From Candidatus Rifleibacteriota bacterium (GTDB taxonomy: Bacteria; Muiribacteriota; UBA6191; JACPRK01; JACQZM01), in the NCBI GenBank assembly GCA_016213885.1, contig JACQZM010000191.1, positions 1 through 55,525 of the forward strand: a DNA stretch of 55,525 nt, written 5' to 3'. A model generated the notes under the pieces. That model saw nothing but the letters and a program-made list of their open reading frames with translations, did not search any database and was not told the origin of the DNA. The stretch's first letter is position 1; every line of letters starts with the position of its first letter. Shown one piece after another: positions 28,384 through 47,239 of this stretch. Made by a program: the position numbers and the translations under genes.

Positions 28384-30846
28384 ATGACCAGCGGCACCAC
28401 CGTCAAGCTGCAGCTGCCTCCGTCCCTGGTCGGCTCCTACGAGTTGACGCGAGAGCTGGCCGTGGGCGGCATGGGGGTCATCTACCTGGGCAGAGACCTG
28501 ATCAACCAGAGGGACGTGGTCTTCAAGTTCATCGCCCCGGAACTGCTGGGAGACGACGAGACCCGGCAACGGTTCATCAACGAGGCCAAGCTGACGGCCC
28601 AGCTGAACCACCCCAACATCGTCCAGCTGTACGGGGCCGGCGAAGAGGCCGGTCTTCTGTACATCATCTACGAGTTCATCGACGGGCAGAACCTGAAGAC
28701 GCTCCTGGAGAAGTACGGCATCTACCCCATAGGCAAGGCGCTGGACATCCTCATCAAGGTGGCCGACGGGCTGGCCTACGCTCACCAGCACAAGATCCTC
28801 CATCGGGACATCAAGCCCGAGAACATCCTGGTGAGCCCGCTGGGAGATTCCATCAAGATCGTCGATTTCGGGATCGCCAAGTCCATGGAAGACTCCCAGA
28901 AGCTCACCCAGACCGGCTTCATCATCGGGACCCCGGAGTACCTGTCGCCGGAGCAGGCGGTGGGCCACAAGGCCACGGTCCATTCGGACCAGTACGCCGT
29001 GGCGGTGCTGGCGTACGAGCTGTTGACAGGTCGGCTCCCCATCGAGGAGGTCAACACCGTCGACCTGTTCACGAAGAAGATACGGGGCGACTGTGTTCCG
29101 ATCCGGGAGCGCCGCCCGGAGATCCCGGTGGAGCTCCAGAAGATCATCGATCGGGCCATGGCCACGGAGGCGCCGAAACGCTACCCCGCCATGTCCGATC
29201 TCTTGAACGATCTGAGGACGTTCGCCGGCAGGCGCACCGCCGGCGGCGGCGCCAGGGCCCCGGGCCCCCGCAGCGGAGTGGGTGAGCGAGAGCCCGGGGC
29301 GAGCGGCATCCGGGGCCGCCCCCTTGCCGCCGGGCCGGCTCCCCAGTCCACCACCGGCACATCCGCCGGCCTCCATCGCAAGGAGGAGCCGACGGTCCAG
29401 GTTCCTTCCCTCCGGGGAGGCTACTGGCGTGACCGGACCGATCGGTTCTGGCATTTCACCATGCGGATCCCCAGCGCCGTGGTCTACGGAGGGGTCATGG
29501 TGCCGCTGGTCATCGCCCTCTTGTGGGCGCTCGCCCCGTCCCGGAAGAAGGAGACCGGCCTGCCGCGCATGATCGGCACTCTGGCGGTGCTGCACAGCCT
29601 CGATGGCGTCACGTTCTCCTGGGACATCCAGATGCAGGGGGAGGCGCTGCTGATCGTGGAGCCGCCGGCGAGGACGTACCCCATGCGCCACGATGGCAAG
29701 CGGTACTCGGTTCACATGGCTCCGGCCTCCATCGAGGGAGCGGAGCGGATGAGCCTCGTGTTCAAGCAGGGATCGCGGGTCGAAGCGGAGATCAGGGGGA
29801 TCCCGCTCCTGGGAGTCCACGTGGGCGTCGACGGTGTGACCGTGGACGTCCCCCCCACGGCGGCTCCGAAGCCGGTCCTGGTCTACTGGGGCAAGAACCG
29901 CGTGAAGAAGGGCCTGCCCTGCACGGTCAGCGACAAGGGGCCGGCCCACGTCAAGCTGCCGGTCGACCCGGCGGAGGAGCTCCACGTGGAGCTGGCCACC
30001 GGCACCGATCCCCCCCGGGAGCCGCTCAGTCTTCCCCAGAGGATCGAACCGCCTCAGGATTACCTGGAGCGGGTCAGCGACAAGCTGGATCGTCTGGGCG
30101 CCCTCAAGGTGTTCAGCACCCACGCTGCCGATGCGGATCGCGACTGGTTGAATCGTCGGGTCCGCGAGGTCGTGAAGGCCGTCTGGGACGAGCTGGGCGA
30201 CCTGTTCAACGCGTTCGAGCCGTTCAAGGCCTACATCTCTTCTCCGGGGCTCGATCTGGCCTTGCGGCGATCGCTGTGCGAGAGGGTCCGGAGGCTGGAA
30301 GTGATGATGGAGATGGCCAAGAGAGCGTCGGAGGACCACCAGAGGACCCAGGCTGCCACGGATGTGGCGAGGCTGTTCGCTCTGCCGTGGCCGATCGGCT
30401 CCAGGTGGGACCTCGAGAAATCGCTCACCGGGGCCCGGCAGCCCCAGGAGTCCCAGGACAAGATCCTCCAGAGGGAGAGGCCGTTGAATCGCTTCAGATC
30501 GGAGAGCCTGGACAGGGCCGCGGCAAAGTCGGCGGTGATCCAGCTGAAGTGCCTGGTCTCCGGCGTGGGCACCTACCTGAAGATCTCGCTGAACGAGAAG
30601 CCGCTCACCTACGCCCTGGGGCCCGGCGAGCTCCCCAAGACGGTGCAGGCCCAGATGGGAACGATCTCGGTGACCATGGATGCGGCGTTGCTGAAGGACG
30701 GGGAGAACGTCGTGGAGCTGGAGCACTTCCCCGTGGCGGGCCTCGCCTGGAACAGCAAGGAGATCCTGGTGCTCGACCAGAAGCTCAAGCTGGTGGACTC
30801 CGGGGGGCGTTCCAGCGAGAAGAAGCTGCACTCCGAGCTGAAGTAG
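28384..30846 (+). CDS. Hanks-type Ser/Thr protein kinase with TM helix and unrecognised extracytoplasmic region
   Basis: GGMGVIY, HPNIV, HRDIKPENIL, DFGIAK, GTPEYLSPEQ; TM AVVYGGVMVPLVIALLWAL. Confidence 0.93.
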   Translation: MTSGTTVKLQLPPSLVGSYELTRELAVGGMGVIYLGRDLINQRDVVFKFIAPELLGDDETRQRFINEAKLTAQLNHPNIVQLYGAGEEAGLLYIIYEFIDGQNLKTLLEKYGIYPIGKALDILIKVADGLAYAHQHKILHRDIKPENILVSPLGDSIKIVDFGIAKSMEDSQKLTQTGFIIGTPEYLSPEQAVGHKATVHSDQYAVAVLAYELLTGRLPIEEVNTVDLFTKKIRGDCVPIRERRPEIPVELQKIIDRAMATEAPKRYPAMSDLLNDLRTFAGRRTAGGGARAPGPRSGVGEREPGASGIRGRPLAAGPAPQSTTGTSAGLHRKEEPTVQVPSLRGGYWRDRTDRFWHFTMRIPSAVVYGGVMVPLVIALLWALAPSRKKETGLPRMIGTLAVLHSLDGVTFSWDIQMQGEALLIVEPPARTYPMRHDGKRYSVHMAPASIEGAERMSLVFKQGSRVEAEIRGIPLLGVHVGVDGVTVDVPPTAAPKPVLVYWGKNRVKKGLPCTVSDKGPAHVKLPVDPAEELHVELATGTDPPREPLSLPQRIEPPQDYLERVSDKLDRLGALKVFSTHAADADRDWLNRRVREVVKAVWDELGDLFNAFEPFKAYISSPGLDLALRRSLCERVRRLEVMMEMAKRASEDHQRTQAATDVARLFALPWPIGSRWDLEKSLTGARQPQESQDKILQRERPLNRFRSESLDRAAAKSAVIQLKCLVSGVGTYLKISLNEKPLTYALGPGELPKTVQAQMGTISVTMDAALLKDGENVVELEHFPVAGLAWNSKEILVLDQKLKLVDSGGRSSEKKLHSELK

Positions 30847-34564: not shown

Positions 34565-35169
34565 CAGGGTCCTCCTGGGCAGGCTGCCTGCTACTGCATG
34601 ATGGTGGAAGTCGGCGATCTGGCGGGGCCCCGACGTCGAGATGGCGACAAAAAACTCCGAGTTCAGGGATCATTTGTCGGATACTGCCGGGCGAGGGGTT
34701 CGACGAAAATATCACACGGGTCGCACCCTCGCAAGAGAGTTCTGGTTTTTTTCACAGAATGCCGATCTGGAGCGGATTCGCTCGACTCGTCCAGGCGTCG
34801 TTCCGGTTCGCTTTACACGTCACCACGGTCGGATTAATAGCTGAGGTGCTGAGTGCCCTCATCGCGGCGCTTTGGGCGTGGGTTGACGAGCCGATCTCGA
34901 TCTAATCCGGAGAACGCCCTCCGTCGATGCATGGAAGGAGGTGTGGGACACTACGGACCCATCCGTGGTCGTCGTCTTGTGGCGAGCTCGGCCGGGGAAG
35001 CGCCGGGCCGACGAGCCGCGGATAGGTTCGAAGGGGTTCGGGAGGTGAGGAGCCGTCTAGAGACCCATCTCTGGAGCAGCAGGGCGCTTTAGCTAGCAGC
35101 AGCAACAGTCGCAGAACTGGGGAAGGGGCAGGGCCAGCGAAGGGAAGACCGGAGTCCCGCGGGCAGGCG

Positions 35170-35189
35170 CAAGGGAACATGGAAACTTG
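35170..35189 (+). promoter_or_regulatory. Conserved leader hairpin, copy 1
   Basis: CAAG-GGAACATGGAAA-CTTG, ~75 nt upstream of the TTG start at 35264. Confidence 0.55.
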
Positions 35190-35263
35190 CCGCCAGGACC
35201 CGGGAAAGAGGCCTTCCGGAACGCGACGCCTTGACTCCTCCTCAAGACGAAGGAGGGAGTCGC

Positions 35264-37276
35264 TTGAACCGCTTCGTTGTGTGGGGTACCGCGTTAGGAG
35301 TGTTGTTCAGTGGCCTTCCAGGCTATACCGCTGACGCGCCGAAGGCGGCGGACAAGGGGGCCACCGAGGCCGGCAAGGAAGCGCCTCGCAAGGCCAAGAA
35401 GGCTCGCAAGGCCAAGAGAATGAAGAAGGACGTCGGCCACGTCTCCGCGGAGAGGGCGAGCGGCCCGTTCGCCGACATCCCGAAGGGGCACTGGGCCTAC
35501 GAGGCCGTGGCGAAAGCCGTGGAATCGGGGCTGCTCCAGGGTTACGAGAACAAGTACTACGGGAACCGCGCCATGACCCGGTACCAGATGGCCGTGGTGG
35601 TGGCCCGGATGCTCGAGAAGTTGGCCGTGCTGAGGTCCAACGGCCGGATGTTCACGGCGCAGGACATCGCGAACCTCGAGGCGCTGACCATCGAGTTCGC
35701 CGATGAGCTCGCGCTGTTGAACGTCAAGGTGTCGACCTTGGAGGAGCAGACGGCGGTCCTGAGGAAGGACGTCGACCAGCTGAAGTACGAGCTGGGCACC
35801 GGCGGGCCCAGGAGCCCGATCACCGGCCTGATCGCGGCCCGCGCCGTGGTCACCTCCAGCGGCAACCCGGGTTACGGCCAGCTGGCCCCGGCCAACACCC
35901 CTCGATCCGCCGCCACCCCCAGCATGCTCCGCTACCGGGGCGACCCCTCCGGCCCGGGCGACATCTTCGCCAACGGCGGTGGCATCGCTGGCAATCCGTG
36001 GCAGTTCTCCAACAGGTTCTTCATGACGGTCTCGCAGCTGTCGCTGAACCTGGACCGCCAGATCGCCAAGGATGTGGAACTGCACACCCAGATCGACGTC
36101 AACGCCGAGGCTGCGGACCGGGCGTACGGCGTTCCGGCCAACGGCCCCCAGATGACGTTCGACCCGATCTACGGCACTGCGGCTAGACTGCAGGACACGC
36201 CGTTCAGCTTGAACGGCCCGTTCTACCAGGGCAGCGGTCGAGGAGCCAGCTTCTTCGGCAGCCCGATCCAGGTCAACGAAGCGTACGTCCAGTTCAACGG
36301 CTGGGTCGGCGACGCCGACGCCAAGCTCGGCGTCTTCGCCACTCCGTTCAACGTTGAAGTGAACGGCCCCTCGAGGACCTACAACTGGACGCTCACCCCG
36401 TCGGTGGCGAACAGCTTCTGGGAAGGCCTGCGGATGACCGGGGTGGAAGTCCGCCAGGGCCGGAAGGAAGACTACTGGCTGTGGAACCTCGGCGTGTTCT
36501 CGAACCTCGACATGCCCAACGGCGCTGCCGGTGCCACCCTGCTGTCCGGCACCCAGGCCGCCTCTGGCGCCGGCCCGCTGGATCCGTTCGGCAACCTGGC
36601 CGGCACCCGGTTCCCGACCCCCCGCGCCGGTGTGATGACCGACGCTCCGCGGGGCATCAACGGTGAGACCGAGCAGGACAACGTGGGCTACTACGCCCGG
36701 GTCGGTGGCCAGGAGAAGGACAACCTGGGCTTCGGCTGGCAGCTCGGCTACGTCAACAACGGCGGGGAGATCCGGCCGTCCAGCTCTGGCCGGGGCACCT
36801 GGTCCGAGTGGGACGCCTATCAGATCGCCCTGGACTACAAGTGGCACGAGTGGATGATCCTCTCCCAGTACTACGGTGGCCGGACCAAGAACCTGTCGGT
36901 CGTCGATCTGACCAGCGGGATCGCCGGGTTCGACTACCGCCGATCGTTCGCCGTCGCCGGTTTCCTGGGAACGCCGTTCCCGAACGCGACCCGCGCCGAC
37001 ACCACGTCGGATTCGGTGATGGGCCTGGTCTCCTACGCCTGGTCCAAGCAGTCGTCGCTGACCCTGAGGTACGAGAACGCCGTGGATCAGACCGGCAACG
37101 CGATGATCGGCGGCTCGTTCTGGACTTTCGGTTACAACCGGAAGGTCGGCGATCGCGGGATGCTGCAGGCGGAGTACATCACCGCGACCACCCGGACCCG
37201 AGCCGAGAACCTGAGCTACATCGGCACGGACATCGCCGACGACATCGCCCAGCTGAACTACAAGCTGCAGTTCTAG
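35264..37276 (+). CDS. SLH-coiled-coil-beta-barrel outer-membrane tether (OmpM-like), paralogue 1
   Basis: TTG after AGGAGG; signal peptide; SLH FADIPKGHWAYEAV...GLLQGY...MTRYQMAVVVARML; coiled coil EFADELALLNVKVSTLE; beta-rich body ending LNYKLQF. Confidence 0.85.
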   Translation: MNRFVVWGTALGVLFSGLPGYTADAPKAADKGATEAGKEAPRKAKKARKAKRMKKDVGHVSAERASGPFADIPKGHWAYEAVAKAVESGLLQGYENKYYGNRAMTRYQMAVVVARMLEKLAVLRSNGRMFTAQDIANLEALTIEFADELALLNVKVSTLEEQTAVLRKDVDQLKYELGTGGPRSPITGLIAARAVVTSSGNPGYGQLAPANTPRSAATPSMLRYRGDPSGPGDIFANGGGIAGNPWQFSNRFFMTVSQLSLNLDRQIAKDVELHTQIDVNAEAADRAYGVPANGPQMTFDPIYGTAARLQDTPFSLNGPFYQGSGRGASFFGSPIQVNEAYVQFNGWVGDADAKLGVFATPFNVEVNGPSRTYNWTLTPSVANSFWEGLRMTGVEVRQGRKEDYWLWNLGVFSNLDMPNGAAGATLLSGTQAASGAGPLDPFGNLAGTRFPTPRAGVMTDAPRGINGETEQDNVGYYARVGGQEKDNLGFGWQLGYVNNGGEIRPSSSGRGTWSEWDAYQIALDYKWHEWMILSQYYGGRTKNLSVVDLTSGIAGFDYRRSFAVAGFLGTPFPNATRADTTSDSVMGLVSYAWSKQSSLTLRYENAVDQTGNAMIGGSFWTFGYNRKVGDRGMLQAEYITATTRTRAENLSYIGTDIADDIAQLNYKLQF

Positions 37277-37308
37277 TGGCTTCGTAGCCGCGGCGACTCG
37301 ATAGTCGA

Positions 37309-37355
37309 GAGCCGGCCCGTGGGGATCGCCCCGCAGGCCGGCTTCTTCCTTGTTC
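37309..37355 (+). terminator. Intrinsic terminator
   Basis: AGCCGGCC...GGGG-ATCG-CCCC...GGCCGGCT followed by a pyrimidine/T-rich tract. Confidence 0.6.
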
Positions 37356-37371
37356 GACGTTTTCCAGGCGA

Positions 37372-37482
37372 CCAGGATCCCCCGCCTGTTTCGCGGAGTC
37401 GGGCCTGTGATCAGGCCTCGGCCTGCCTACAGAGTCACCAAGGAAGCGGAGGGTGTTCATTTGAAGTCGCGCTCGGGGGCGC
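37372..37482 (+). repeat. Modular intergenic repeat, copy 3 (A-B', no hairpin C)
   Basis: CCAGGATCCCCCGCCTGTTTCGCGGAGTCGGGCCTGTGATCAGGCCTCGGCCTG...TTGAAGTCGCGCTCGGGGGCGC. Confidence 0.9.
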
Positions 37483-37843
37483 TGCTCTGGAGCCGGTTCT
37501 CGGAGCTTCCGGGCAGTCGGAGCGGCCGCATCCCGCTGCCAGAGCCGATCGTCATCGATCACACCCCACGGCGGCGCCGGTGCACGATGGCCTGTATTCC
37601 ACTCATGAAGAGCATTTGGGCACGTGGCTGGAGCTCGCGGGAGAACCCCGGGCAGGCGGGCCGGGTCGTTCACCCATGGCGCTTCTCACTATATAGGGGC
37701 CGGTGGGGGATGGTAGCCCCCAGCGGGTCGATCGTCACCCCGCCGGGCATCGCCTTCGTCGCGGACTTCTTTTTTCTACCTCCATGGGCCAGGTCGCCAC
37801 GAAATGCCGTTGGGAAGCCCATCTTCCCGACTCGAAAAAAAAC

Positions 37844-37873
37844 TTGTGCCGGCACTAGACGATTTGCTATTCT
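37844..37873 (+). promoter_or_regulatory. Possible sigma70 promoter for OmpM-like paralogue 2
   Basis: TTGTGC, 18-nt spacer, extended -10 TGcTATTCT, preceded by an A-tract (UP-like). Confidence 0.45.
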
Positions 37874-37969
37874 CTTGCCGCTTCAACCAAACTGTGGGTC
37901 CTCTGACTGATTTTGTCCTCTGAAGACTCATCGCCGGAACGAAGCGGCAGCCGCACGCGGCACCCTCAT

Positions 37970-37989
37970 CAAGGCAACTTGGAAACTTG
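37970..37989 (+). promoter_or_regulatory. Conserved leader hairpin, copy 2
   Basis: CAAG-GCAACTTGGAAA-CTTG, ~100 nt upstream of GTG 38091. Confidence 0.55.
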
Positions 37990-38090
37990 CTGAGAAGAGC
38001 GTCGGCCATCCCGCCATCGAACCTCGGGCGATCGTTCAAGAGGCGACCCGGTCGGACGAGACCCGGGATGTGACCTTTCAGGAGGTTCAC

Positions 38091-39934
38091 GTGCGACGCT
38101 TTTTCTTGACGATCCTGGCACTGATGGTCCTCGTCAGTGCGACCGCCGCTTTCGCCGACGCGTTCTCCAGGGCTGGGACAACAGGTTCCACGGCAACAAG
38201 GTGGTCAACCGCTACCAGATGGCAGTGGTCGTGGCCCGGATGCTCGACCGCGTTGGCGTCTTGAAGGCCAACGGCAAGGTCATCACGGCCCAGGACATCG
38301 CCAACCTGGAATCGCTGACCATCGAGTTCGCCGATGAGCTCGCGCTCTTGAACGTGAAGGTCAGCACCCTGGAAGACACCGTGGCCGGTCTGAAGAAAGA
38401 TGTCGACCTGATCAAGGCCGACCTCCGTGGCGTCGGCGCCCGCGCCGGCATCACCGGGACCATGCAGGCCCGCTTCGTGTTCACCTCCGACGGCTCCAAC
38501 GGCTGGGCGCCCGGCAACTTCGTGACCGGCCAGGTTCCGAACGCCGCCGCGTCGACCGCCATCGGCCGCTACAAGGGTGGCTCCACCGGGCTGGCCGTCA
38601 ACAACGCCTTCCTGGCCAACAGCGTGACCAACCCGTACCGGTTCGACAGCCGCCAGTTCTTCTCGGTCTCCAACTTCGCGGTCAACATCGACCGCGAGTT
38701 CGACCCGAAGTTCCACTTCCACGCGCAGGTGGACATCAACGCGGAAGGCGCCTGGGATCAGATGGGCGCCCGGTCGGTCTTCGGTGGCTTCTCCCCGACC
38801 TGGGCCGGCTCGACCTTCGCGATCGGTGGCAATCCTCTCTCCGGCCGTGGCGAGAACTTCGCGTTCGCCAACGGGTCGGTGCTCGATGCCCTCGTGAACG
38901 AAGTGTACGTGGTGTGGGACGACTGGTTCACCGACGGCGTGTCTGGCCGGCTGGGTATCTGGGCGCTCCCGATGAACACTGAAGTGAACGGCCCGAGCCG
39001 CTCCTACCAGTGGACGATCACCCCGTCGATCGCGAACAGCAAGTGGGAAAGCCTGAGGCCGGTCGGTCTGGACATCTTCCAGCACAACGACAAGGAAAGC
39101 CTGGTGTTCTACGTCGGATTCTTCACCCCCGGCGACACGACCCAGATGATCCACCGGTCCGGTACCCTCCTCTCCGCCCCGACCGGGTTCACCGCGGTGC
39201 CGGTCACCACGAACCTGGCCACCAACGTCTTCGGCACGCAGGTCGACCCCACCGTGAATCCTGGTGGAGCCGCCTGGGGTCTTGGCCGGTTCCCGACCCC
39301 GCTGGCCTACGCGGCGATGACCGACGCGGCTCGCGGCGTTCAGGGCCAGACGCTGGCCTCCGACGACATCGGGTTCTACTTCCAGATCGGGACGCACCCG
39401 ACCAACAAGGGCCACGAAGGTCTGACCTGGCACGTCGCCTACTTCGATCGCAACGGCGATCTGCGGCCTGCCACCGACGACTTCATCAGCGCCACCGACT
39501 GGTACGCCTGGCAGCTCGCGGCCAACTACCAGTGGGAGAAGGTCATGCTGGGCATCCAGTACTTCGACGCGACCTCCAGGAACTACAACCTGGCGGATCC
39601 GGTCGTGGACTGGCGCCGGCAGAACACCACCCCGTTCCTGAACGTGGGCGGCCAGGACACCCAGTCCCGGTCGATCATGGCCATCGTGAACTGGGCGTTC
39701 TCCAAGCGTGGCAACGTGACGGTCCGCTACGAAGCCGCGGAAGACAAGACCGGCCTCGCGAAGCTCGAAGCCGATGTCTGGACGTTCGGTTTCAACTGGA
39801 AGACCAGCGACCACAGCCGGTTCCAGCTGGAGTGGATCGCCCCCACGACCAAGGCCACCTCCGAGAACGGCTGGCGGAACACCAGCGACATCAAGGACGA
39901 CCTGGTCCAGCTGAACTACAAGCTCAACTGGTAA
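38091..39934 (+). pseudogene. OmpM-like paralogue 2, frameshifted by an apparent deletion in the SLH domain near 38165
   Basis: GTG after GGAGG gives MRRFFLTILALMVLVSATAAFA-DAFS, then another frame continues LQGWDNRFHGNKVVNRYQM...; the DVP..HWAY..GI part of the SLH is missing; ends LNYKLNW. Confidence 0.85.
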
Positions 39935-39946
39935 GGTCCCACCGTC

Positions 39947-40016
39947 CCGGGCCCTGACAGGGCCCGGCGGACATCGAACCCGGCCCGCGGTCTCCCGCTG
40001 GCCGGGTTTTCGTTTG
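39947..40016 (+). terminator. Tandem hairpins ending in an intrinsic terminator
   Basis: CCGGGCCCTG-A-CAGGGCCCGG (39947-39967), then AACCCGGCC...GGCCGGGTT followed by TTCGTTTG. Confidence 0.7.
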
Positions 40017-40258
40017 TCCGCCGGGTGGTGGCGCACGACCGAACGACGCCTGCCGGTGGGCCCGGGAGCAGAAAAGACAGGCTGGGCGTTCCGGCCCCCT
40101 CGAATGTAGAAAAATCGGCCGCTCGACCACTGATTTGTCAGATTTTCCTCCGTGACCGCCGATAGATGGCCTAGGGAGAGCGTCCGTTCTCTCGGGTGGT
40201 CATCGGTGGACACGGCGTCGCGCACGGCCGAGCCGGCGAGTCACCGGGAGCGATCGAA

Positions 40259-40278
40259 CAAGGAAACACGGCCACTTG
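40259..40278 (+). promoter_or_regulatory. Conserved leader hairpin, copy 3
   Basis: CAAG-GAAACACGGCCA-CTTG within the longer stem CGAACAAG/CTTGTTCG, ~80 nt upstream of TTG 40361. Confidence 0.55.
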
Positions 40279-40360
40279 TTCGTCAGGCTCGCGGGGCCTC
40301 GTCCCGGACCGGAACCGGACCGGGTCGTGTCCATCACCGGATGTTCGAGGAGGTCTGGAC

Positions 40361-42238
40361 TTGAAGTGCACCGCTAGGTTACTCGTCGCGGCCCTCTTTC
40401 TGAGCTTGGTGCTCGGCGCGGAAGCCGCCCCGGCGAAGAAGAGCAAGAAGAAGAAGGCGCGACCTGCAGTTGCCTGCTCGAAGGTCAAGGCGGGCCCAAG
40501 CGGCCCGTTTGCCGACGTTCCTCCGGGCCACTGGGCCTACGAGGCGATCTCGAAGGCGGTTGGCGCCGGGATCCTCCAGGGCTGGGAGAACAAGTTCCAC
40601 GGAAACAAGGTGGTCAACCGCTACCAGATGGCGGTGATCGTGGCCCGGATGGTCGACCGGATGGGCGTCTGGAAGGCGAACGGCCGGACGATCACCGCCG
40701 AGGACGTGGCCAACCTGGAATCCCTGGTCATCGAGTTCGCCGATGAGCTGGCCATGCTCAACGTGCGGATCAACAAGGCCGAGGACGCCATCGCCGGCAT
40801 CAGGAAGGATCTCGATCTGATCAAGGCGGAGATGGCCAGCGGCGGGGTCAAGTCCGGCATCTCCGGAGTCCTCTCCACGAGGTTCGTCATGACCGGGAAT
40901 GCCTCCCCGGGCTGGAACCCCGGCTCGTTCATCGGTAGCGCCACGATCCCCGACCCGGCCGCCACGCACCCGCTGGTGCGCTACAGGGGCGGATGTTCGT
41001 CGGGCATCGGAACAAGGGCCAATCCGCTGCGGTTCGACAGCCGGAACTTCTTCACCGCCTCCAACTTCTCGGTGTCCATCGACAGACACTACGATCCGCA
41101 CCGCTACTTCCACGCGCAGGTCGATCTGAACTCCGAGGGCCTGCTGGAGGACTTCGCCGTGCAGGCCACGGCCGGCACTGGCCTGCCCACCGCGGGGCGT
41201 GGCGAGAACTTCGCCTCGTCGGCCAGTCAGCTCATGGTGAACGAGGCGTACGCGGTCTGGGAGGACTGGTTCAAGCCCCAGATCAACGGCCGGCTGGGCA
41301 TCTTCGCCCTGCCGATGAACACGGAGGTGAACGGCCCCGGGCGGACCTACCTGTGGACGCTCACCCCGTCGATCGCCAACTCCAAGTGGGAATCGCTCAG
41401 GCCCGTCGGCCTGGACATCTTCCAGGACATCGACTGTGACGAGTTGACGTTCTACGTCGGCTTCTTCACCCCCGGCGAGACCGCGGGCGGCGTCCTCCGG
41501 TCGGGCACCCTCCTCTCGTCGCCGACCCCGTTCGGCGCCACTGCCCAGACCGACCTGAGCGTGAACCCTGCCGGTGCCGGGTTCGGAGCAGGACGGTTCC
41601 CGTCGCCGCTGTTCGGTCCGGCCATGACCGACGGTCCGCGGGGAGTCCAGGGGCAGAGCCTGTCGGCGACCGACATCGGGTTCTACGGCTGCATCGGGAC
41701 CCGACCGACCAAGAAGGCCGACGGGATCCGATGGCACCTGGCCTACTTCGACAGGAACGGCGATCTGAGAGCCGGAACCAACGAGCACATCAGCCAGACC
41801 GACTGGTACGCCTGGCAGGCCTCCGCCAGCTATCAGTGGACCGAGTACCTGCTGCTGGCCCAGTACTACAACGGTATCTCGAAGAACTACAACACGGCGG
41901 ACGGCATCATCGACGCCCGCCGTGGGATCACCACGCCGTTCGTGAACGTGGGCGCGCTGGATACGGACTCCGCGTCGTTCATGTTCCTGTTCAACTGGCA
42001 GTTCTGCCCCAAGGGGGCGACGACGGTGCGGTTCGAGAAGGCGTGGGACGAGACCGGACTGGCCAGGCTCGAAGCCGAGGTCCTGACGTTCGCCTTCAAC
42101 TGGAAGGCGTCGGACCACAGCTGGCTGCAGGCGGAGTACATCACGGGGAACTCCCGAAGCCGCTCCGAGAATGGCTTCCGGAACACCCAGGACATCGAGG
42201 ACGACATGTTCCAGGTCAACTACAAGTTGAACTGGTAG
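40361..42238 (+). CDS. OmpM-like SLH-coiled-coil-beta-barrel, paralogue 3
   Basis: TTG after GGAGG; signal peptide; Lys-rich linker; FADVPPGHWAYEAI...GILQGW...NRYQMA; EFADEL; ends VNYKLNW. Confidence 0.85.
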   Translation: MKCTARLLVAALFLSLVLGAEAAPAKKSKKKKARPAVACSKVKAGPSGPFADVPPGHWAYEAISKAVGAGILQGWENKFHGNKVVNRYQMAVIVARMVDRMGVWKANGRTITAEDVANLESLVIEFADELAMLNVRINKAEDAIAGIRKDLDLIKAEMASGGVKSGISGVLSTRFVMTGNASPGWNPGSFIGSATIPDPAATHPLVRYRGGCSSGIGTRANPLRFDSRNFFTASNFSVSIDRHYDPHRYFHAQVDLNSEGLLEDFAVQATAGTGLPTAGRGENFASSASQLMVNEAYAVWEDWFKPQINGRLGIFALPMNTEVNGPGRTYLWTLTPSIANSKWESLRPVGLDIFQDIDCDELTFYVGFFTPGETAGGVLRSGTLLSSPTPFGATAQTDLSVNPAGAGFGAGRFPSPLFGPAMTDGPRGVQGQSLSATDIGFYGCIGTRPTKKADGIRWHLAYFDRNGDLRAGTNEHISQTDWYAWQASASYQWTEYLLLAQYYNGISKNYNTADGIIDARRGITTPFVNVGALDTDSASFMFLFNWQFCPKGATTVRFEKAWDETGLARLEAEVLTFAFNWKASDHSWLQAEYITGNSRSRSENGFRNTQDIEDDMFQVNYKLNW

Positions 42239-42623: not shown

Positions 42624-44369
42624 ATGACCACTACCCAGAGAATTGCCAAGATGAAGCTGGGGGAGGCGCTCATCGCCAACGGCTTCATCAACCAGGAGCA
42701 GCTCAAGGAGGCCATCGCACGCCAGAAGCAGACCGGCAAGCGACTCGGACAGATCCTCATCGAGATGAGGGTCGTGACCGAGCGGGACATCACAGAAGTC
42801 CTGTCCAAGCAGCTCAACGTCCCGTTCATCGACCTGTCGAACTACATCATCGACCCGGCGATCGCCAAGCTGGTGCCGGAGCACATCGCCCAGCGACACC
42901 AGCTGATCCCGATCAACAAGGTGGGCAACAAGCTCACCGTGGCGATGGTGGACCCGCTGAACGTCCTGGCCGTGGACGACATCCAGCTCATGACGGGGCT
43001 TCAGGTGAAGGCGGTGGTGGCCACCCCGTCTGACGTGCAGAAGGCCCTGCAAGACACCTACGGCGCCCATTCCCAGCTCGACAAGGTGTTCGACGACATC
43101 GCCGGGACCGACATCGCCAAGGAAGCTGCCAGCGCAGAGGACCTCGAGTCTTTCGGAGAGCTGGGCGAGAACGACGCTCCGATCATCCGGCTGGTGAACC
43201 TCATCATCACCCAGGCCGTCAATATCGGGGTTTCCGACATCCACATCGAACCCTACGAGAAGGAGCTGAGGGTCAGGTACCGCAAGGACGGAGTGCTCTA
43301 CACGGAGATGACCCCTCCCAAGAAGGCCCAGGCAGCCATCACGAGCCGCGTGAAGATCATGTCCTCCCTGGACATCGCGGAGAAGCGGCTCCCCCAGGAC
43401 GGTCGTATCAAGCTGAAGGTGAACAACCGCGGCATCGACCTCAGGGTATCGGTCCTGCCCACCGCCTGGGGCGAGAAGGTGGTCATGCGGATCCTCGACC
43501 AGGCGGGCCTCCGGGTGAACCTCGAGGACCTGGGGTTCGAGCCCGCCACGTACGAGCGGTTCAAGGACGGCATCAAGACCCCGTACGGCATCATCCTGGT
43601 GACCGGACCCACCGGATCGGGCAAGACCACCACGCTCTACTCCGCCCTCACGACGCTCAACGAGATCAGGGTGAACATCCTGACCGCAGAAGACCCGATC
43701 GAGTACCAGCTCCACGGAGTCAACCAGGTGCAGTGCAAGCCGGAGATCGGGCTCACGTTCGCGGCGGCGCTCCGGTCTTTCCTGCGGCAAGACCCGGACA
43801 TCATCATGGTGGGAGAGATCCGCGACTACTAGACCGCGGAGATCGCCATCAAGGCCTCCATGACCGGCCACCTGGTGCTGTCGACGCTCCACACGAACGA
43901 CGCGCCCTCCACGGTGGGCCGGTTGCTGGACATGGGCGTCGAGGCTTTCATGGTCACCTCCTCGGTCATCTTGATCCAGGCCCAGCGGCTGGTCCGCACC
44001 TGCTGCAAGGACTGCAAGAAGGAGCTGAAGCCGAAGAAAGAGGTGGTGGACAGCCTCGGGATCAACACGGAGCTGCTGCGCCGCCTCGACCTCCCTCACA
44101 TCGACGAGAAGAACCTCAAGTTCTTCAAGGGTGAAGGGTGCGACACCTGCAACCGCGACGGCTACAAGGGTCGCATGGGCGTGTACGAGGTCATGAAGAT
44201 GTCCGAGAACGTCCGCCAGTGCATCTTGAAGGGCGGATCCACCACGGACGTCTTCCGCCTGGCCAAGTCGGAGGGGATGCTCACCCTGCGTGAGTCGGCC
44301 CTCCGGAAGGCGCTCCTGGGAGTCACCACCGTGGAAGAGGTGGTCCGGGTCACCGCCGCCGACCGGTAG
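42624..44369 (+). pseudogene. pilB: Type IV pilus assembly ATPase PilB interrupted by an in-frame TAG at 43830-43832
   Basis: MshEN-like KLGEALIANGFI...RLGQIL; SDIHIEP; RLPQDGRI; GPTGSGKTT; EDPIEY; [40 protein letters not shown] continues in the same frame. Confidence 0.95.
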
Positions 44370-44391
44370 AACCGGGGAGCGGACCGGCCAT

Positions 44392-44575
44392 CCAGGATCC
44401 CGCACCCGTTTCGCAGGGCTTGGGCTGTGATCACCCTCTTGGCCGGATCGAGGCTCACGAAGGAAGTGGAGGGGATCCGGTTGGAGTCGCACTCGGGAGA
44501 GAGAAAGAGGAGAGGATCAGGTTGAAGGTCGCGCTCGGGGGCGCGACTCGGATCCGGCGAGACGCCGGATCTGGC
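44392..44575 (+). repeat. Modular intergenic repeat, copy 4 (diverged A-B-B-C)
   Basis: CCAGGATCCC...TGTGATCA..., two B modules, hairpin GATCCGGCG-AGA-CGCCGGATC (44551-44571). Confidence 0.85.
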
Positions 44576-44584
44576 AGAGCCGCC

Positions 44585-44614
44585 TTGTGCGAGCGCTCCT
44601 CGAACGGGTAGAAT
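44585..44614 (+). promoter_or_regulatory. Possible sigma70 promoter for pilT
   Basis: TTGTGC, 18-nt spacer, TAGAAT, just after the repeat. Confidence 0.45.
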
Positions 44615-44803
44615 CTCTGAACCGGAGAGAGCGGGCATCGGCGGCCCAGGGAGACGGGCCGGGACCGGCTCGTGCCGTCCCGGGGCATCCCCCGCGCTCA
44701 CCCTCCGGTATCTGGCTGGGCATCGCGGACCAGCGCCGGGTCTTCAGAGGAGTTTCCGCAGACAGCGTACCAACCACCAGCCGAGAGCAGGGAGAGACCA
44801 GGA

Positions 44804-45862
44804 ATGTTCGTTCTGAACGATCTCCTCAATCTGGTAGTCGACAACGACGCATCGGACCTTCACCTGACCGTCGGGACGCCACCGATCATCCGCGTCGACG
44901 GAGACCTGATCCCGACCGACCTGGACGTTCTGACGCCCATGGACACGCGCAGCCTCATCTACAACATGCTCACCGCGGAGCAGCAGAAGGCGTTCGAGAA
45001 AGACCTCGAGCTGGACATCAGCTACTCCGTGCACGGGTTCGGTCGGTTCCGCGTGAACGTCTACAAGCAGCGCGGCTGCATCGCTGCCGCATTCCGGATC
45101 ATTCCCTCGAAGATCCCGACCCTGGAGGAGCTGAAGCTCTCGCCGGTCATCCAGGAGTTCTCGAAGCTTCACAAGGGGCTGGTGTTGATCACGGGGCCCA
45201 CCGGGTCCGGAAAGTCCACGACGCTGGCGGCCCTGATCGACCTGATCAACGAGACCCGTCGGTGCCACATCGTCACGATCGAGGACCCGATCGAGTACCT
45301 GCACTACCACAAGAAGTCGATCATCAATCAGCGGGAGCTCCACGTCGACACCCACTCGTTCCCCAACGCCTTGAAGCACGTCCTCAGAGAAGACCCCGAC
45401 GTGATCCTGGTCGGTGAAATGCGAGACCTGGAGACGATCGAGACGGCGCTCACCCTGGCAGAGACCGGCCACCTCGTGTTCGGTACGCTGCACACCACCG
45501 ATGCGGCCCAGACGATCAACCGCGTGGTGGACGTGTTCCCGCCCCACCAGCAAGGGCAGGTGAGAACGCAGCTGTCGTTCGTGCTGCGAGCCGTGGTGGC
45601 GCAGCAGCTTCTCCAGACCGCATCCGGCAAGGGCCGGGTCGTCTGCGAGGAGATCCTGATCGTCAATCCGGCGGTCCAGAACATCGTCCGGGAGCAGAAG
45701 ATCCAGCAGCTGTACACGGTCATGCAGACCGGTCAGAGTCTGGGCATGAAGACGTTCGAACAGTCGCTCAGGGACCTCTACTCCAGGGGCGAGATCACCT
45801 ACCAGGAGGCCATGGTTCACACGTCCAGACCGGATGAGCTGGCACGGATGCTGAAAGGTTAG
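44804..45862 (+). CDS. pilT: Type IV pilus retraction ATPase
   Basis: ASDLHL, RFRVNVY, GPTGSGKSTT, EDPIEY, REDPDVILVGEMRD, ETGHLVFGTLHT, AIRNLIRE-like AVQNIVRE. Confidence 0.95.
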   Translation: MFVLNDLLNLVVDNDASDLHLTVGTPPIIRVDGDLIPTDLDVLTPMDTRSLIYNMLTAEQQKAFEKDLELDISYSVHGFGRFRVNVYKQRGCIAAAFRIIPSKIPTLEELKLSPVIQEFSKLHKGLVLITGPTGSGKSTTLAALIDLINETRRCHIVTIEDPIEYLHYHKKSIINQRELHVDTHSFPNALKHVLREDPDVILVGEMRDLETIETALTLAETGHLVFGTLHTTDAAQTINRVVDVFPPHQQGQVRTQLSFVLRAVVAQQLLQTASGKGRVVCEEILIVNPAVQNIVREQKIQQLYTVMQTGQSLGMKTFEQSLRDLYSRGEITYQEAMVHTSRPDELARMLKG

Positions 45863-46033
45863 CCCGGACAGGTTATCATTCAATTGATGGAACGGTTTGG
45901 CCCCCAGACCGGTCCCAGGCATACGACGCTCGATCAGGTAGCGGTTGTTGGCTCCATCTCGACGCTGTCGACTCCGGACGAGGTGACGGCGTTGCGTTGG
46001 CTCGTGGCCGATCTTGGCCGGGAGGCGTGATTC

Positions 46034-47239
46034 ATGCCCACCTTTATGGTCAGATCCCGTAACTGGGAAGGCAAAGTCGTCACCAACGAGCTGGAGGGCG
46101 AGAGCAAAGACGTCGTCGTAGCCAAGCTTCGCGAGAAGGGCTTCTTCGTCACCTCCATCACCGAGAAGAAGGCCGGCAAGGGCCTGCCTTTCCTGGGCGG
46201 CGGCAGAGTCTCCTCCAAGGAGGTCGCCATCTTCGCCCAGATGTTCTCGGTGATGATCGGCTCCGGCGTGCCCCTGGTCCGATGTCTGTCGATTCTCCAG
46301 GTCCAGCTGGAGAACCCCGCCTTCGCCAAGATGGTCGGCCAGATCCGGACCGCCGTGGAAGAGGGGTCGACGTTCTCGGCTGCGCTGGGGAAGCATCCCA
46401 AGGCGTTCGACAACCTCTTCGTCAACCTGGTCAAGGCCGGAGAGGCCGGCGGTATCCTGGACAAGATCCTCCAGCGACTGGCCGGTTACCTGGAGAAGTC
46501 GGAGGAGCTCAAGGCCAAGGTGAAGGGCGCCCTGACCTACCCGGTGGTGGTCCTGGCGATCGCCGCCATCGTCGTCCTCGCCTTGGTCATGTTCGTGCTG
46601 CCACAGTTCAAGTCGATCTTCAACTCCATGAACGTGGAGTTGCCGGCCGTGACCAAGGCGCTGCTGGCTTTCTCCGACATCATGCAAGAGTGGTGGTGGA
46701 TCATCATTCCCTGCCTGCTGCTCATCCCGATGTCGATCGCCCAGTTCTTCAAGTCGCCGCAGGGGCAACGGGTCTTCGACTCCAACATCCTGAGAGTACC
46801 GGTCCTCGGGATGATGATGAGAAAGGTGGCCGTGGCCCGGTTCACCCGGACGCTGGGCACCATGATCGCATCCGGCGTGCCGATCTTGCAGGCGCTGGAG
46901 GTGACGGCTGCCACGGCCGGCAACGTGATCATCAAGGAGGCCGTGGACCGGACCCGGATCTCGATCCGCGAGGGCGAATCGATCGCGGATCCGCTGAAGA
47001 CCTCCGGGGTGTTCCCGCCGATGGTGGTCCAGATGATCTCCGTCGGTGAGGAGACCGGCGAGCTGGACAAGATGCTCATGAAGATCGCCGAGTTCTACGA
47101 CACCGAAGTGGACGCGGCGGTCAAGGGCCTCACGTCGGTCATCGAGCCGATCGTCATCGTGTTCATGGGTCTGGTCATCGGCGGCATCGTTCTCGCCGTG
47201 TTCATGCCCATGTTGAAGCTGATCAACAACGTCGGCTGA
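46034..47239 (+). CDS. pilC: Type IV pilus platform protein (T2SSF family)
   Basis: SGVPL, AGEAGGIL, ALTYP, SGVPIL, VGEETGELDKML, IEP; three TM segments. Confidence 0.95.
   Translation: MPTFMVRSRNWEGKVVTNELEGESKDVVVAKLREKGFFVTSITEKKAGKGLPFLGGGRVSSKEVAIFAQMFSVMIGSGVPLVRCLSILQVQLENPAFAKMVGQIRTAVEEGSTFSAALGKHPKAFDNLFVNLVKAGEAGGILDKILQRLAGYLEKSEELKAKVKGALTYPVVVLAIAAIVVLALVMFVLPQFKSIFNSMNVELPAVTKALLAFSDIMQEWWWIIIPCLLLIPMSIAQFFKSPQGQRVFDSNILRVPVLGMMMRKVAVARFTRTLGTMIASGVPILQALEVTAATAGNVIIKEAVDRTRISIREGESIADPLKTSGVFPPMVVQMISVGEETGELDKMLMKIAEFYDTEVDAAVKGLTSVIEPIVIVFMGLVIGGIVLAVFMPMLKLINNVG

What the first reader, a model, noticed from the sequence alone, without database searches (positions are those of the whole stretch)
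35170..40278. Conserved CAAG-N12-CTTG hairpin in the leaders of all three OmpM-like genes: candidate new cis-regulatory RNA
Seen: 35170 CAAG-GGAACATGGAAA-CTTG, 37970 CAAG-GCAACTTGGAAA-CTTG, 40259 CAAG-GAAACACGGCCA-CTTG; loop consensus G-N-AAC-W-Y-GG-M-M-A, always 12 nt, 75-100 nt before the start. The surrounding leaders are otherwise dissimilar, yet each stem extends with different sequence (GGCG/CGCC, CTCA/TGAG, CGAA/TTCG), which favours an RNA structure over a DNA operator. I do not recognise it as a known riboswitch.
Basis: partly seen in the sequence, partly recalled or inferred. Interest (0 to 1): 0.72.

Follow-up and report, generated by a model that had tools for sequence, protein, structure and literature searches.

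The report
Conserved RNA hairpin before OmpM genes
The three short palindromes are the tips of a real, widely conserved RNA hairpin in the leaders of outer-membrane tether (OmpM/SLH) genes, very probably the already published but still unexplained "SLH motif".

Summary
CAAG-N12-CTTG occurs three times in the window (0.33 expected), each 74-102 nt before one of three tandem SLH/OmpM-like genes. A stricter pattern and a covariance model find only these three in the 8.4-Mb genome.

It is an RNA hairpin. The same apex (AAG / G-N-AAC-NN-GG-A/C-N-R / CUU) precedes SLH genes in 36 of 87 genomes of the window's phylum. It also gave more than 131 hits in Synergistota, Negativicutes and other phyla. The lower stem changes sequence but keeps pairing, and the sense strand folds better than the antisense. 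In a Sporomusa locus, RNA-seq 5' ends map to the base of the hairpin.

It is not new. Stav et al. 2019 (PMC6429828) described an "SLH motif" riboswitch candidate with the same gene context and taxa. An intergenic region with exactly their coordinates contains this hairpin. Rfam 15 has no match.

Function is untested. I favour a docking loop for an unknown partner that controls translation or mRNA stability, because the 3' stem strand is often complementary to the Shine-Dalgarno site. CsrA is unlikely.

The parts
35155..35205 (+). Leader hairpin 1 (extended stem); conserved apex 35170-35189
   Evidence: MFE and constrained folds give GGCG.CAAG/CUUG.C.CGCC plus outer pairs, -21.9 kcal/mol. CM R1 scores 38.7 bits; R2 scores 32.1 bits.
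37955..38002 (+). Leader hairpin 2; conserved apex 37970-37989
   Evidence: The 61-nt and 52-nt windows fold as a hairpin at -20.1 and -11.7 kcal/mol. R1 scores 36.4 bits. In a 149-nt context the MFE fold does not keep the hairpin.
40244..40294 (+). Leader hairpin 3; conserved apex 40259-40278
   Evidence: Perfect 8-bp apical stem CGAACAAG/CUUGUUCG plus outer helix. -28 kcal/mol, z = -3.4, 0 of 200 shuffles as good. The hairpin is kept in the 134-nt leader fold.
35264..37276 (+). omp1, SLH-domain OmpM-like gene (start TTG 35264 predicted; the ORF is open from 35231)
   Evidence: Pfam SLH at E 3.8e-10. 39% identical to omp3.
38092..39934 (+). omp2, an OmpM-like gene with a damaged 5' end. The signal-peptide frame (GTG 38092) is one base out of frame with the main ORF (38201-39934), and the first half of the SLH domain is missing.
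40361..42238 (+). omp3, SLH-domain OmpM-like gene
   Evidence: Pfam SLH at E 4.7e-9. The N-terminus matches D. radiodurans SlpA (7zgx) and the 8bym/8bys SLH-domain protein chains; that these chains are V. parvula OmpM is recalled.
35233..35261 (+). omp1 Shine-Dalgarno region (AAGGAGGGAG), predicted to pair with an upstream CUCCUCCUC anti-SD tract
   Evidence: Both the MFE and centroid folds of 35150-35275 show it. This is a prediction only.
35040..35052 (+). SD-like box GGGAGGUGAGGAG about 120 nt upstream of hairpin 1. It may correspond to the AGGAGGUG box of Synergistota and Riflebacteria leaders.
   Evidence: Sequence. The box is found in 39 of 126 family members at -81 to -151 nt. The correspondence is inferred.
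37836..37882 (+). A+T-rich patch with TTGTGC-N18-TATTCT, a possible omp2 promoter
   Evidence: Read by eye. The consensus scan found 0 promoter-like sites in 34700-40500, so this is weak.
40100..40170 (+). A+T-rich patch after a terminator-like site (39988-40004), a possible omp3 promoter region
   Evidence: Inferred.

Best explanation
The three sites are the apical parts of three ~50-nt RNA hairpins in the 5' leaders of three tandem OmpM-type genes (SLH-domain outer-membrane tether/porin). They belong to a hairpin family that precedes SLH/OmpM genes in the window's phylum, whose relatives carry record titles 'Candidatus Riflebacteria' or 'Ozemobacter'. The same family precedes these genes in Synergistota, Negativicutes and a few other diderm lineages. 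It is very probably the published orphan 'SLH motif'. The invariant part is a 3-bp AAG/CUU stem closing a 12-nt loop, G-N-A-A-C-N-N-G-G-(A/C)-N-R. Below that, only base pairing is conserved, not sequence. Shown here: family-wide conservation, covariation, sense-strand bias, exclusive association with SLH genes in this phylum, and transcription with 5' ends at the hairpin base in one Negativicute. Inferred: the loop is a docking site for a conserved trans-acting partner, more probably a protein or another RNA than a small metabolite, because only a single apical loop is conserved. Also inferred: the hairpin sets the translation and/or lifetime of the ompM mRNA. In many members the 3' strand of the lower stem is C-rich and complementary to the gene's own Shine-Dalgarno region, while the 5' strand is SD-like. 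Hairpin formation would therefore compete with anti-SD:SD pairing and control ribosome access. Where the hairpin sits at the very 5' end (Negativicutes), it would also shield the transcript from 5'-end-dependent decay.
For: Recurrence: 36 of 87 phylum genomes have at least one copy 108-270 nt before an SLH signature (my tally). This includes 3 of the 5 other genomes of the window's order, plus a fourth copy at a contig end. A strict pattern anchored on the SLH 'HW' codons gave more than 131 stretches in genome contigs; I estimate about 2 would be expected by chance.
Structure: among the 105 distinct 36-nt copies, the pair flanking AAG/CUU is GC in 26, AU in 24, CG in 15, UA in 6, GU in 2 and unpaired in 32. 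The covariation score is 0.324 against 0.119 for shuffles (0 of 500 as high), and slid registers pair in at most 52% of cells against 74%. In the 61 rows found by a pattern that did not constrain the outer five pairs, 55.7% of cells pair against 38.0% when shuffled (0 of 1000 as high). Cognate flanks fold at -12.3 kcal/mol against -6.2 for swapped 3' flanks (0 of 200 as good).
Strand: the sense strand is more stable than the antisense in 83 of 108 copies.
Transcription: in locus L089 (Sporomusa ovata record), three raw-read RNA runs show depth 874-1514 over bins 753-799, about 0 at 847-893, and molecule ends at 814-821. The hairpin spans 814-761, a -10-like TAGAAT lies at 839-834 and the ATG at 713-711. 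Consensus promoters lie upstream of the hairpin in many relatives.
SD link: duplex energy of the 3' flank with the SD region is -11.7. Comparison values are -6.5 for the 5' flank, -8.1 for shuffled flanks and -9.4 for non-cognate SD regions (0 of 2000 permutations as good). Anti-SD-like pentamers occur in 42 of 105 3' flanks against 5 of 105 5' flanks; SD-like pentamers occur in 29 of 105 5' flanks against 5 of 105 3' flanks. Spacing from hairpin to start codon has a median of 71 nt, with 101 of 125 in the 60-99 nt range.
Literature.
Against: No function has been tested by anyone, and the mechanism is inference.
In the window itself no promoter or TSS is mapped (0 promoter-like sites), so transcription of these three copies rests on homology.
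The omp2 hairpin is lost in the MFE fold of a longer context, and whole-leader folds are no better than shuffles (z = +0.25, -0.26, -1.47).
The anti-SD signal is partial: 42 of 105 by pentamer. A reversed-flank control already gives -10.1 kcal/mol, so base composition explains part of it. In omp1 the predicted anti-SD lies outside the hairpin.
No partner is known. CsrA, the obvious GGA-loop binder, was not found in any of the 6 genomes of the window's order, which nonetheless keep the loop.
The authors who described the SLH motif rated it a riboswitch candidate. I could not see their consensus (Fig. 3e is not held), so identity with their motif rests on gene context, taxa and coordinates.
Confidence: 0.6

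Rival explanations
1. It is a true metabolite-sensing riboswitch, as the SLH-motif authors proposed (they suggested c-di-GMP). The hairpin, perhaps with lineage-specific upstream parts, would bind a cell-envelope-related small molecule and switch the anti-SD/SD pairing.
For: The published classification (PMC6429828 passages). There is an anti-SD/SD competition that could serve as an expression platform. The spacing to the start codon is fairly fixed. Synergistota and some Riflebacteria leaders carry a further conserved upstream domain with an AGGAGGUG box.
Against: Only one apical loop and three base pairs are conserved across phyla. Internal loops and lower helices differ freely. In Negativicutes the hairpin starts at the mRNA 5' end with no upstream domain. 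I found no covarying pseudoknot partner for most loop segments. There is no terminator and no excess leader coverage. No ligand is known.
Confidence: 0.17
2. It is a passive 5' stabiliser stem-loop of a very abundant mRNA (like the ompA or aprE leaders, recalled), with no regulatory partner.
For: The mapped 5' ends lie 0-7 nt from the first paired base in L089. Predicted promoters lie directly upstream of the hairpin in Selenomonadaceae. OmpM is described as a major envelope protein.
Against: A passive hairpin does not need a loop in which 9 of 12 positions are conserved across phyla. In Riflebacteria and Synergistota, predicted promoters lie about 75-160 nt upstream, so the hairpin is internal to the leader there.
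Confidence: 0.12
3. It is a DNA operator: a palindromic binding site for a dimeric transcription factor that regulates the ompM genes.
For: CAAG/CTTG is a perfect inverted repeat with fixed 12-bp spacing in the window.
Against: The spacer is conserved asymmetrically and always in the gene's orientation. The outer C-G pair covaries through all four Watson-Crick types. The variable lower stems keep pairing, with 110 G-U pairs in the sense folds, and the sense strand folds better than the antisense in 83 of 108 copies. The element lies downstream of the mapped 5' ends in L089.
Confidence: 0.03
4. It is a CsrA/Rsm-type binding hairpin, with GGA presented in an apical loop.
For: The loop has GGA at positions 8-10 in 102 of 106 copies. 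CsrA is present in 73 of 87 phylum genomes.
Against: CsrA was found in 0 of 6 genomes of the window's own order (72-84% complete). At least 4 of those 6 (G000, G001, G002, G005) keep the intact loop; G004 has a further copy at a contig end. Three copies, including omp3, have GGC instead of GGA. Loop conservation extends well beyond GGA.
Confidence: 0.05

Closest known systems
SLH motif RNA, riboswitch candidate (Stav et al. 2019, BMC Microbiol 19:66, PMC6429828; passages and Table S1c read, figure not seen)
   Same: It lies upstream of SLH-domain genes and is reported from Synergistaceae, Negativicutes, Clostridia and metagenomes.
   Different: The paper does not list the window's phylum, and reports 80 examples. 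I could not compare the consensus drawing or alignment. The motif is not in Rfam 15. I found no follow-up paper.
5'-terminal stabiliser stem-loops of abundant mRNAs (E. coli ompA leader, B. subtilis aprE leader; recalled, not looked up)
   Same: It is a hairpin in the 5' UTR of a major outer-membrane protein mRNA, and it sits at the extreme 5' end in the Sporomusa locus.
   Different: Those act through structure alone. Here the loop sequence is conserved across phyla, and the hairpin is internal to the leader in other lineages.
CsrA/RsmA target hairpins (GGA in a loop; recalled)
   Same: A GGA triplet is presented in an apical loop of a leader near the ribosome-binding site.
   Different: The csrA gene was not found in the window's order. 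There is a single site rather than several, and the conserved loop context is much longer.
STAB-SD, a Shine-Dalgarno-like 5' stabiliser of B. thuringiensis cry3A mRNA (recalled)
   Same: Many Synergistota and Riflebacteria leaders carry a near-perfect SD-like box (AGGAGGUG) about 45-60 nt after the predicted TSS and far from any start codon.
   Different: This box is a separate, lineage-restricted element (39 of 126 copies). It is weak or absent in the window's leaders and absent in Negativicutes. No stability data exist.
Thermus thermophilus slpA leader and its post-transcriptional control
   Same: The gene also encodes an SLH-domain outer-envelope protein and has a long regulated 5' UTR.

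Membership tests
SLH motif (Stav et al. 2019) | Located in the intergenic region upstream of genes for SLH-domain proteins | tested here: met
   Two of the three window copies precede a gene with a Pfam SLH hit; omp2 has no Pfam hit but is an OmpM paralogue. In the phylum set, 47 of 68 CM hits have an SLH signature within 450 nt downstream.
SLH motif (Stav et al. 2019) | Occurs in Synergistaceae and Firmicutes (Negativicutes, Clostridia) | tested here: met
   The same apex was found before SLH genes in records titled Synergistaceae, Aminobacteriaceae, Selenomonas, Sporomusa, Phascolarctobacterium and others.
SLH motif (Stav et al. 2019) | The type example, intergenic region 613490-613841 of the T. 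lienii record, contains the element | tested here: met
   G099:C1 has an intergenic region with exactly these bounds (stop codon at 613487-613489, ATG at 613842) and the apex at 613768-613784. I did not establish which record G099 is.
SLH motif (Stav et al. 2019) | Matches the published consensus sequence and secondary structure (Fig. 3e) | not testable with these tools
   Figures are not held. 'SLH' occurs only in the spreadsheet among the 11 supplements. There is no Rfam model.
Metabolite riboswitch (general) | An aptamer with a conserved multi-element binding pocket plus an expression platform | tested here: inconclusive
   Only a single conserved apical loop is present. A partial anti-SD platform exists. 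There is no terminator. Ligand binding cannot be tested here.
5'-terminal stabiliser hairpin | The hairpin begins within a few nucleotides of the transcript's 5' end | tested here: inconclusive
   Met in L089 by RNA-seq. Predicted promoters lie 75-160 nt upstream in Riflebacteria and Synergistota. The TSS is unmapped in the window.
CsrA/Rsm binding site | The genome encodes CsrA | tested here: not met
   PF02599 was found in 0 of 6 genomes of the window's order, including G000.
Intrinsic terminator / attenuator | A G+C-rich hairpin followed by a U tract | tested here: not met
   No terminator-like site was found at any of the three hairpins. Leader coverage is not higher than coding-region coverage in L089.
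Palindromic DNA operator | Two-fold symmetric conservation that does not depend on strand or on G-U pairing | tested here: not met
   The spacer is asymmetric, orientation is fixed, stems covary and there is a sense-strand bias.

The most novel reading that the evidence does not exclude
The hairpin is the receptor of an undiscovered, ancient post-transcriptional regulator (protein or small RNA). This regulator would tune synthesis of OmpM, the ancestral outer-membrane tether, across diderm Terrabacteria (Negativicutes, Synergistota, Riflebacteria and others). Stand-alone copies of the hairpin, such as the promoter-hairpin-U-tract unit in G012 (L066), would act as decoy RNAs that titrate it. 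This would be functionally analogous to, but unrelated to, the sigma-E/sRNA control of porin mRNAs in Proteobacteria.
Probability: 0.2. Interest if true: 0.75.

Novelty: new member of a known kind. Interest (0 to 1): 0.45.

Why it matters
OmpM is regarded as the ancestral tether between outer membrane and cell wall in diderm Terrabacteria (preprint 10.1101/2021.05.31.446380, passages read). I found nothing in print on how its synthesis is controlled. A hairpin whose loop is nearly invariant from Selenomonas to Synergistota to Riflebacteria-type genomes points to a shared, still unknown control step for the main envelope protein of these bacteria. This work adds several things to the 2019 description:
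- The window's phylum and several other candidate lineages carry the hairpin.
- The conserved core is reduced to one apical module.
- Cross-phylum covariation supports the stem.
- RNA-seq places the hairpin at the mRNA 5' end in a Negativicute.
- The lower 3' strand is linked to the Shine-Dalgarno site.
- CsrA is unlikely as the partner.
For this window the practical result is an annotation: three SLH-motif leaders, one of them in front of a damaged gene.

Tried and rejected
**Searches that found nothing**
- Rfam 15: the whole window at gathering thresholds, 34800-40500 at E<=10, and 20 cross-phylum loci at E<=1. Nothing matched at the hairpins. This includes the TwoAYGGAY family, which I considered because some loops read AUGGAC.
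- A sigma-70 promoter scan of 34700-40500 found 0 sites, so the window's TSSs stay unknown.

**Partners considered**
- CsrA is rejected for this lineage.
- I looked for a pseudoknot or kissing partner of the loop. Reverse complements of loop segments L4-8, L5-9, L6-10 and L8-12 are no more frequent in the cognate leader than those of other loop variants. Only GUUUC (the complement of loop GAAAC) is enriched downstream, in 28 of 106 copies. It lies mostly at -7 to -10 in Selenomonadaceae and at -15 in one Riflebacteria clade, so it is clade-bound and remains only a lead.
- I saw no start codon at a usable distance behind the AGGAGGUG box in the leaders I read. This was not tested formally.

**Hits judged to be chance**
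- Of the 68 CM hits in the phylum set, 17 without an SLH signature were set aside: 3 I read lie in apparent coding sequence and 12 have a disrupted or irregular core. L066 and L068 were kept as notes.
- The G008 pattern hit (L008) lies in coding sequence.

**Limits of what was run**
- Model R2 in the Negativicutes phylum sample hit 13 of 151 genomes at E<=0.001. Only 45 candidates were scored per genome, so this is not a prevalence estimate.
- Model R1 missed two genomes that hold pattern matches.

Full report
**1. The observation**

CAAG-N12-CTTG matches three times in the window against 0.33 expected; 1 of 100 shuffles reached three. With the shared loop letters added (CAAGGNAACNNGGNNACTTG), these are the only three matches in the 8.39-Mb, 710-contig genome. 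There are none on the reverse strand and none for the reversed control.

Each site lies 74-102 nt before the predicted start of one of three tandem genes (35264-37276, 38092/38201-39934, 40361-42238). These genes are 38-56% identical to each other. Two have a Pfam SLH domain. The N-terminus of the third gene, omp3, matches D. radiodurans SlpA and the 8bym/8bys SLH-domain protein chains, which I recall as Veillonella parvula OmpM.

Two more paralogues elsewhere in the genome (C413, C604) showed no motif in the upstream sequence I printed and were not hit by a covariance model at E<=1.

**2. Recurrence in relatives**

A relaxed pattern over 61 genomes of the same phylum found 10 places. Three are the window's own. 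Six lie shortly before genes that begin with a signal peptide and the SLH signature F-x-D-V-P-x-x-H-W-A. One (G008) lies in coding sequence and is chance.

A 36-nt covariance model built from the nine good copies (R1) hit 46 of the 87 phylum genomes held at E<=0.1. I re-scored 64 sources, which gave 68 hits, and then applied an independent filter: an SLH signature within 450 nt downstream.
- 47 hits passed. With the window's omp2 copy, which I kept despite its damaged gene, and two exact duplicates dropped, that makes 46 distinct copies.
- Three further hits sit too close to contig ends to judge.
- 17 hits fail. Three that I read lie in apparent coding sequence and 12 have a disrupted or irregular core. 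The other two, L066 and L068, are noted separately.

By my tally, 36 of 87 genomes have at least one context-validated copy. In the window's own order the copies are in G001, G002 and G005, plus G004 at a contig end. G003 (72% complete) has none.

**3. Spread beyond the phylum**

I scanned one genome per species (genome contigs) with AAGGAAACNNGGANACTT, a gap of 160-190 nt, then CAYTGGKC (the H-W-A/S codons). By my arithmetic, equal base frequencies would give about two chance matches.

Record titles among the hits include:
- Selenomonas, Sporomusa ovata and S. silvacetica, Centipeda, Propionispora and Phascolarctobacterium;
- many Synergistaceae, Aminobacteriaceae and Thermovirgaceae;
- Candidatus Saganbacteria and Armatimonadota;
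- Candidatus Riflebacteria and Candidatus Ozemobacter sibiricus.

The last two have the same hairpin sequences as loci from the window's phylum set (compare), which is how I name the phylum.

**4. It is an RNA structure**

Only AAG, the loop and CUU are conserved; everything below them varies. All nine first copies fold with the 12-nt loop on top of a long imperfect helix. All 80 cross-phylum loci do the same when only the three closing pairs are imposed.

Covariation on the 105 distinct copies, aligned without gaps (A4):
- The pair flanking AAG/CUU is G-C in 26, A-U in 24, C-G in 15, U-A in 6, G-U in 2 and unpaired in 32.
- The second pair changes A-U to G-C in two copies.
- Overall, 74.0% of cells pair against 59.7% in shuffles. 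The covariation score is 0.324 against 0.119 (0 of 500 shuffles as high). Slid registers reach at most 52%.

A caveat on this alignment: 61 rows came from a pattern that fixes the core, and 44 came from a model that rewards pairing. I therefore tested the five outer pairs separately in the 61 pattern-derived rows, where nothing constrained them. There, 55.7% pair against 38.0% when shuffled (sd 2.5; 0 of 1000 as high).

Swapping 3' flanks between copies raises the mean constrained folding energy from -12.3 to -6.2 kcal/mol (0 of 200 permutations as good; n = 108).

The sense strand folds better than the antisense in 83 of 108 copies (-12.3 against -9.9 kcal/mol), and the sense folds contain 110 G-U pairs. 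A DNA operator or cruciform predicts none of this.

**5. It is transcribed**

For locus L089 (a Sporomusa ovata record), three raw-read RNA runs of the same species label were laid.
- The gene lies on the minus strand, and the read orientation fits that.
- Depth is 874-1514 in bin 753-799, 110-195 in bin 800-846, and about 0 in bin 847-893.
- Molecule ends pile up at 814, 817, 818 and 821.
- The hairpin's first paired base is at 814, a -10-like TAGAAT is at 839-834, and the ATG is at 713-711.

So in this Negativicute the hairpin is the 5'-terminal structure of a roughly 105-nt leader. Leader depth does not exceed coding depth, so nothing suggests attenuation.

In many Selenomonadaceae, near-consensus promoters end 10-20 nt before the hairpin. 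In Riflebacteria and Synergistota they lie about 75-160 nt upstream.

In the window itself the consensus scan finds no promoter, and only A+T-rich patches hint at them. Transcription of these three copies is therefore inferred.

**6. Comparison with what is known**

Rfam 15 has no match in the window or in 20 cross-phylum loci.

Full-text search led to Stav et al. 2019 (PMC6429828). Their 'SLH motif' riboswitch candidate was found in Thermovirga lienii. It has 80 unique examples in Synergistaceae, Negativicutes, Clostridia and metagenomes. About 60% lie upstream of SLH-domain genes, and c-di-GMP is suggested as the ligand (passages read). Their Table S1c gives the source interval as 613490-613841.

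It lies inside an intergenic region whose bounds are exactly 613490 and 613841. Gene context, taxa and coordinates therefore all agree.

I could not see the consensus drawing, and the supplements hold no alignment. No other paper mentions the motif. The OmpM papers I checked do not discuss leaders.

**7. How it may work**

Across phyla, the shared part is a single apical module. The internal loops and lower helices are free to vary. That is typical of a docking site for a protein or another RNA rather than of a small-molecule pocket.

Two further regularities point to translation:
- The distance to the start codon is constrained: median 71 nt, with 101 of 125 copies in the 60-99 nt range.
- The 28 nt after the apex are complementary to the gene's own Shine-Dalgarno region. 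The mean duplex energy is -11.7 kcal/mol. Comparison values are -6.5 for the 5' flank, -8.1 for shuffled flanks, -10.1 for the reversed flank and -9.4 for non-cognate SD regions (0 of 2000 permutations as good). Anti-SD-like pentamers occur in 42 of 105 3' flanks against 5 of 105 5' flanks, and SD-like pentamers show the mirror image.

The flavour of the two elements matches within lineages. Synergistota pair CCCCC with GGGGG-type SDs, and Negativicutes pair CUCC(UU) with AAGGAGG.

I therefore favour a switch between two states: the full hairpin (SD free) and anti-SD:SD pairing (SD blocked). An unknown partner bound at the loop would bias the choice. Where the hairpin is 5'-terminal it would also protect the end of the mRNA.

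This is inference. The signal is partial. In omp1 the predicted anti-SD (35233-35243) lies outside the hairpin. The omp2 hairpin is not kept in a longer fold, and whole-leader folds are unremarkable in this 68% G+C genome.

CsrA is unlikely as the partner. It is found in 73 of 87 phylum genomes but in none of the 6 genomes of the window's order, which keep the loop.

**8. Surroundings**

Upstream lie a Ser/Thr kinase gene (28384-30846) and a 1004-aa ORF without a Pfam match. Downstream lie type II/IV secretion ATPase and platform genes (42624-47239). Nothing nearby looks like an RNA-binding regulator.

**9. Verdict**

Its interest lies in the breadth of conservation in front of the ancestral outer-membrane tether, and in the fact that its partner and function are still unknown.

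Noticed in passing
window 38092-38260: omp2 looks damaged. The signal-peptide frame starting at GTG 38092 stops at about 38262 and is one base out of frame with the main ORF (38201-39934). Compared with omp3 and omp1, the segment encoding the first half of the SLH domain (F-A-D-V-P-x-G-H-W-A...) is missing. The junction falls at a short repeat (CCTCC.GGGC) that omp3 has twice. This is either a pseudogene or an assembly error.
   Followed up: partly
L066:676-775 (-) = G012:C31, same class as the window's genome: A stand-alone copy of the hairpin. It has a promoter-like TTGACA-N17-TACTAT, then a ~60-nt hairpin whose apex is CAG/GAAACAAGGACA/CUG (the third pair changed A-U to C-G), followed by U6 (MFE -21.5 kcal/mol, z = -2.9). 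The next gene is GNAT-like, not SLH. It could be a small RNA that mimics the leader hairpin. This is a single case, with CM E = 0.07 per genome.
   Followed up: partly
L207/L208 (G099), L209 (G101), L100-L110 and other Synergistota loci; L005, L006, L007, L010, L023 and others: A near-perfect Shine-Dalgarno-like box (GAAAGGAGGUGC) lies 81-151 nt upstream of the hairpin in 39 of 126 copies, with no start codon behind it. In Synergistota it sits at the tip of a second, nested helix (CCGC...GCGG, GGC...GCC, GGAGG...CYCCC) with some compensatory changes visible by eye. It is absent in Negativicutes. In the window only omp1 has a weak version (35040-35052).
   Followed up: partly
L089 around 723-732: About a quarter of RNA reads carry other letters at 723 and 726, and 250-790 reads per run diverge from the locus upstream of 732. 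This suggests a second, highly expressed paralogue that shares the start of the coding region but has a different leader.
   Followed up: no
translation start regions of L078-L152 (Selenomonadaceae) and L044/L045/L055/L058: GUUUC, the complement of loop positions 1-5 (GAAAC), lies between the SD and AUG (-7 to -10) in Selenomonadaceae and just before the SD (-15) in one Riflebacteria clade. It occurs downstream in 28 of 106 leaders overall. This could be a loop-to-start-site contact, or it could reflect clade history.
   Followed up: partly
G000-G005, G007, G009: The csrA gene (PF02599) was not found in the window's order or in two neighbouring families (including a genome reported as 100% complete), although 73 of 87 genomes of the phylum have it.
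   Followed up: no
window 42624-45862: Two T2SSE ATPase ORFs. The first (42624-43832) matches only profile positions 3-222 of 370 and is followed by short overlapping ORFs, which suggests a frameshift or split gene. A T2SSF gene is at 46034-47239.
   Followed up: no
L068 (G020:C15): A motif-like sequence (CAAG/GGAACAUGGAAA/CGUG, with one stem mismatch) lies directly before the SD of an ABC-transporter permease-like ORF. It could be a diverged copy or chance (CM E = 0.08).
   Followed up: no
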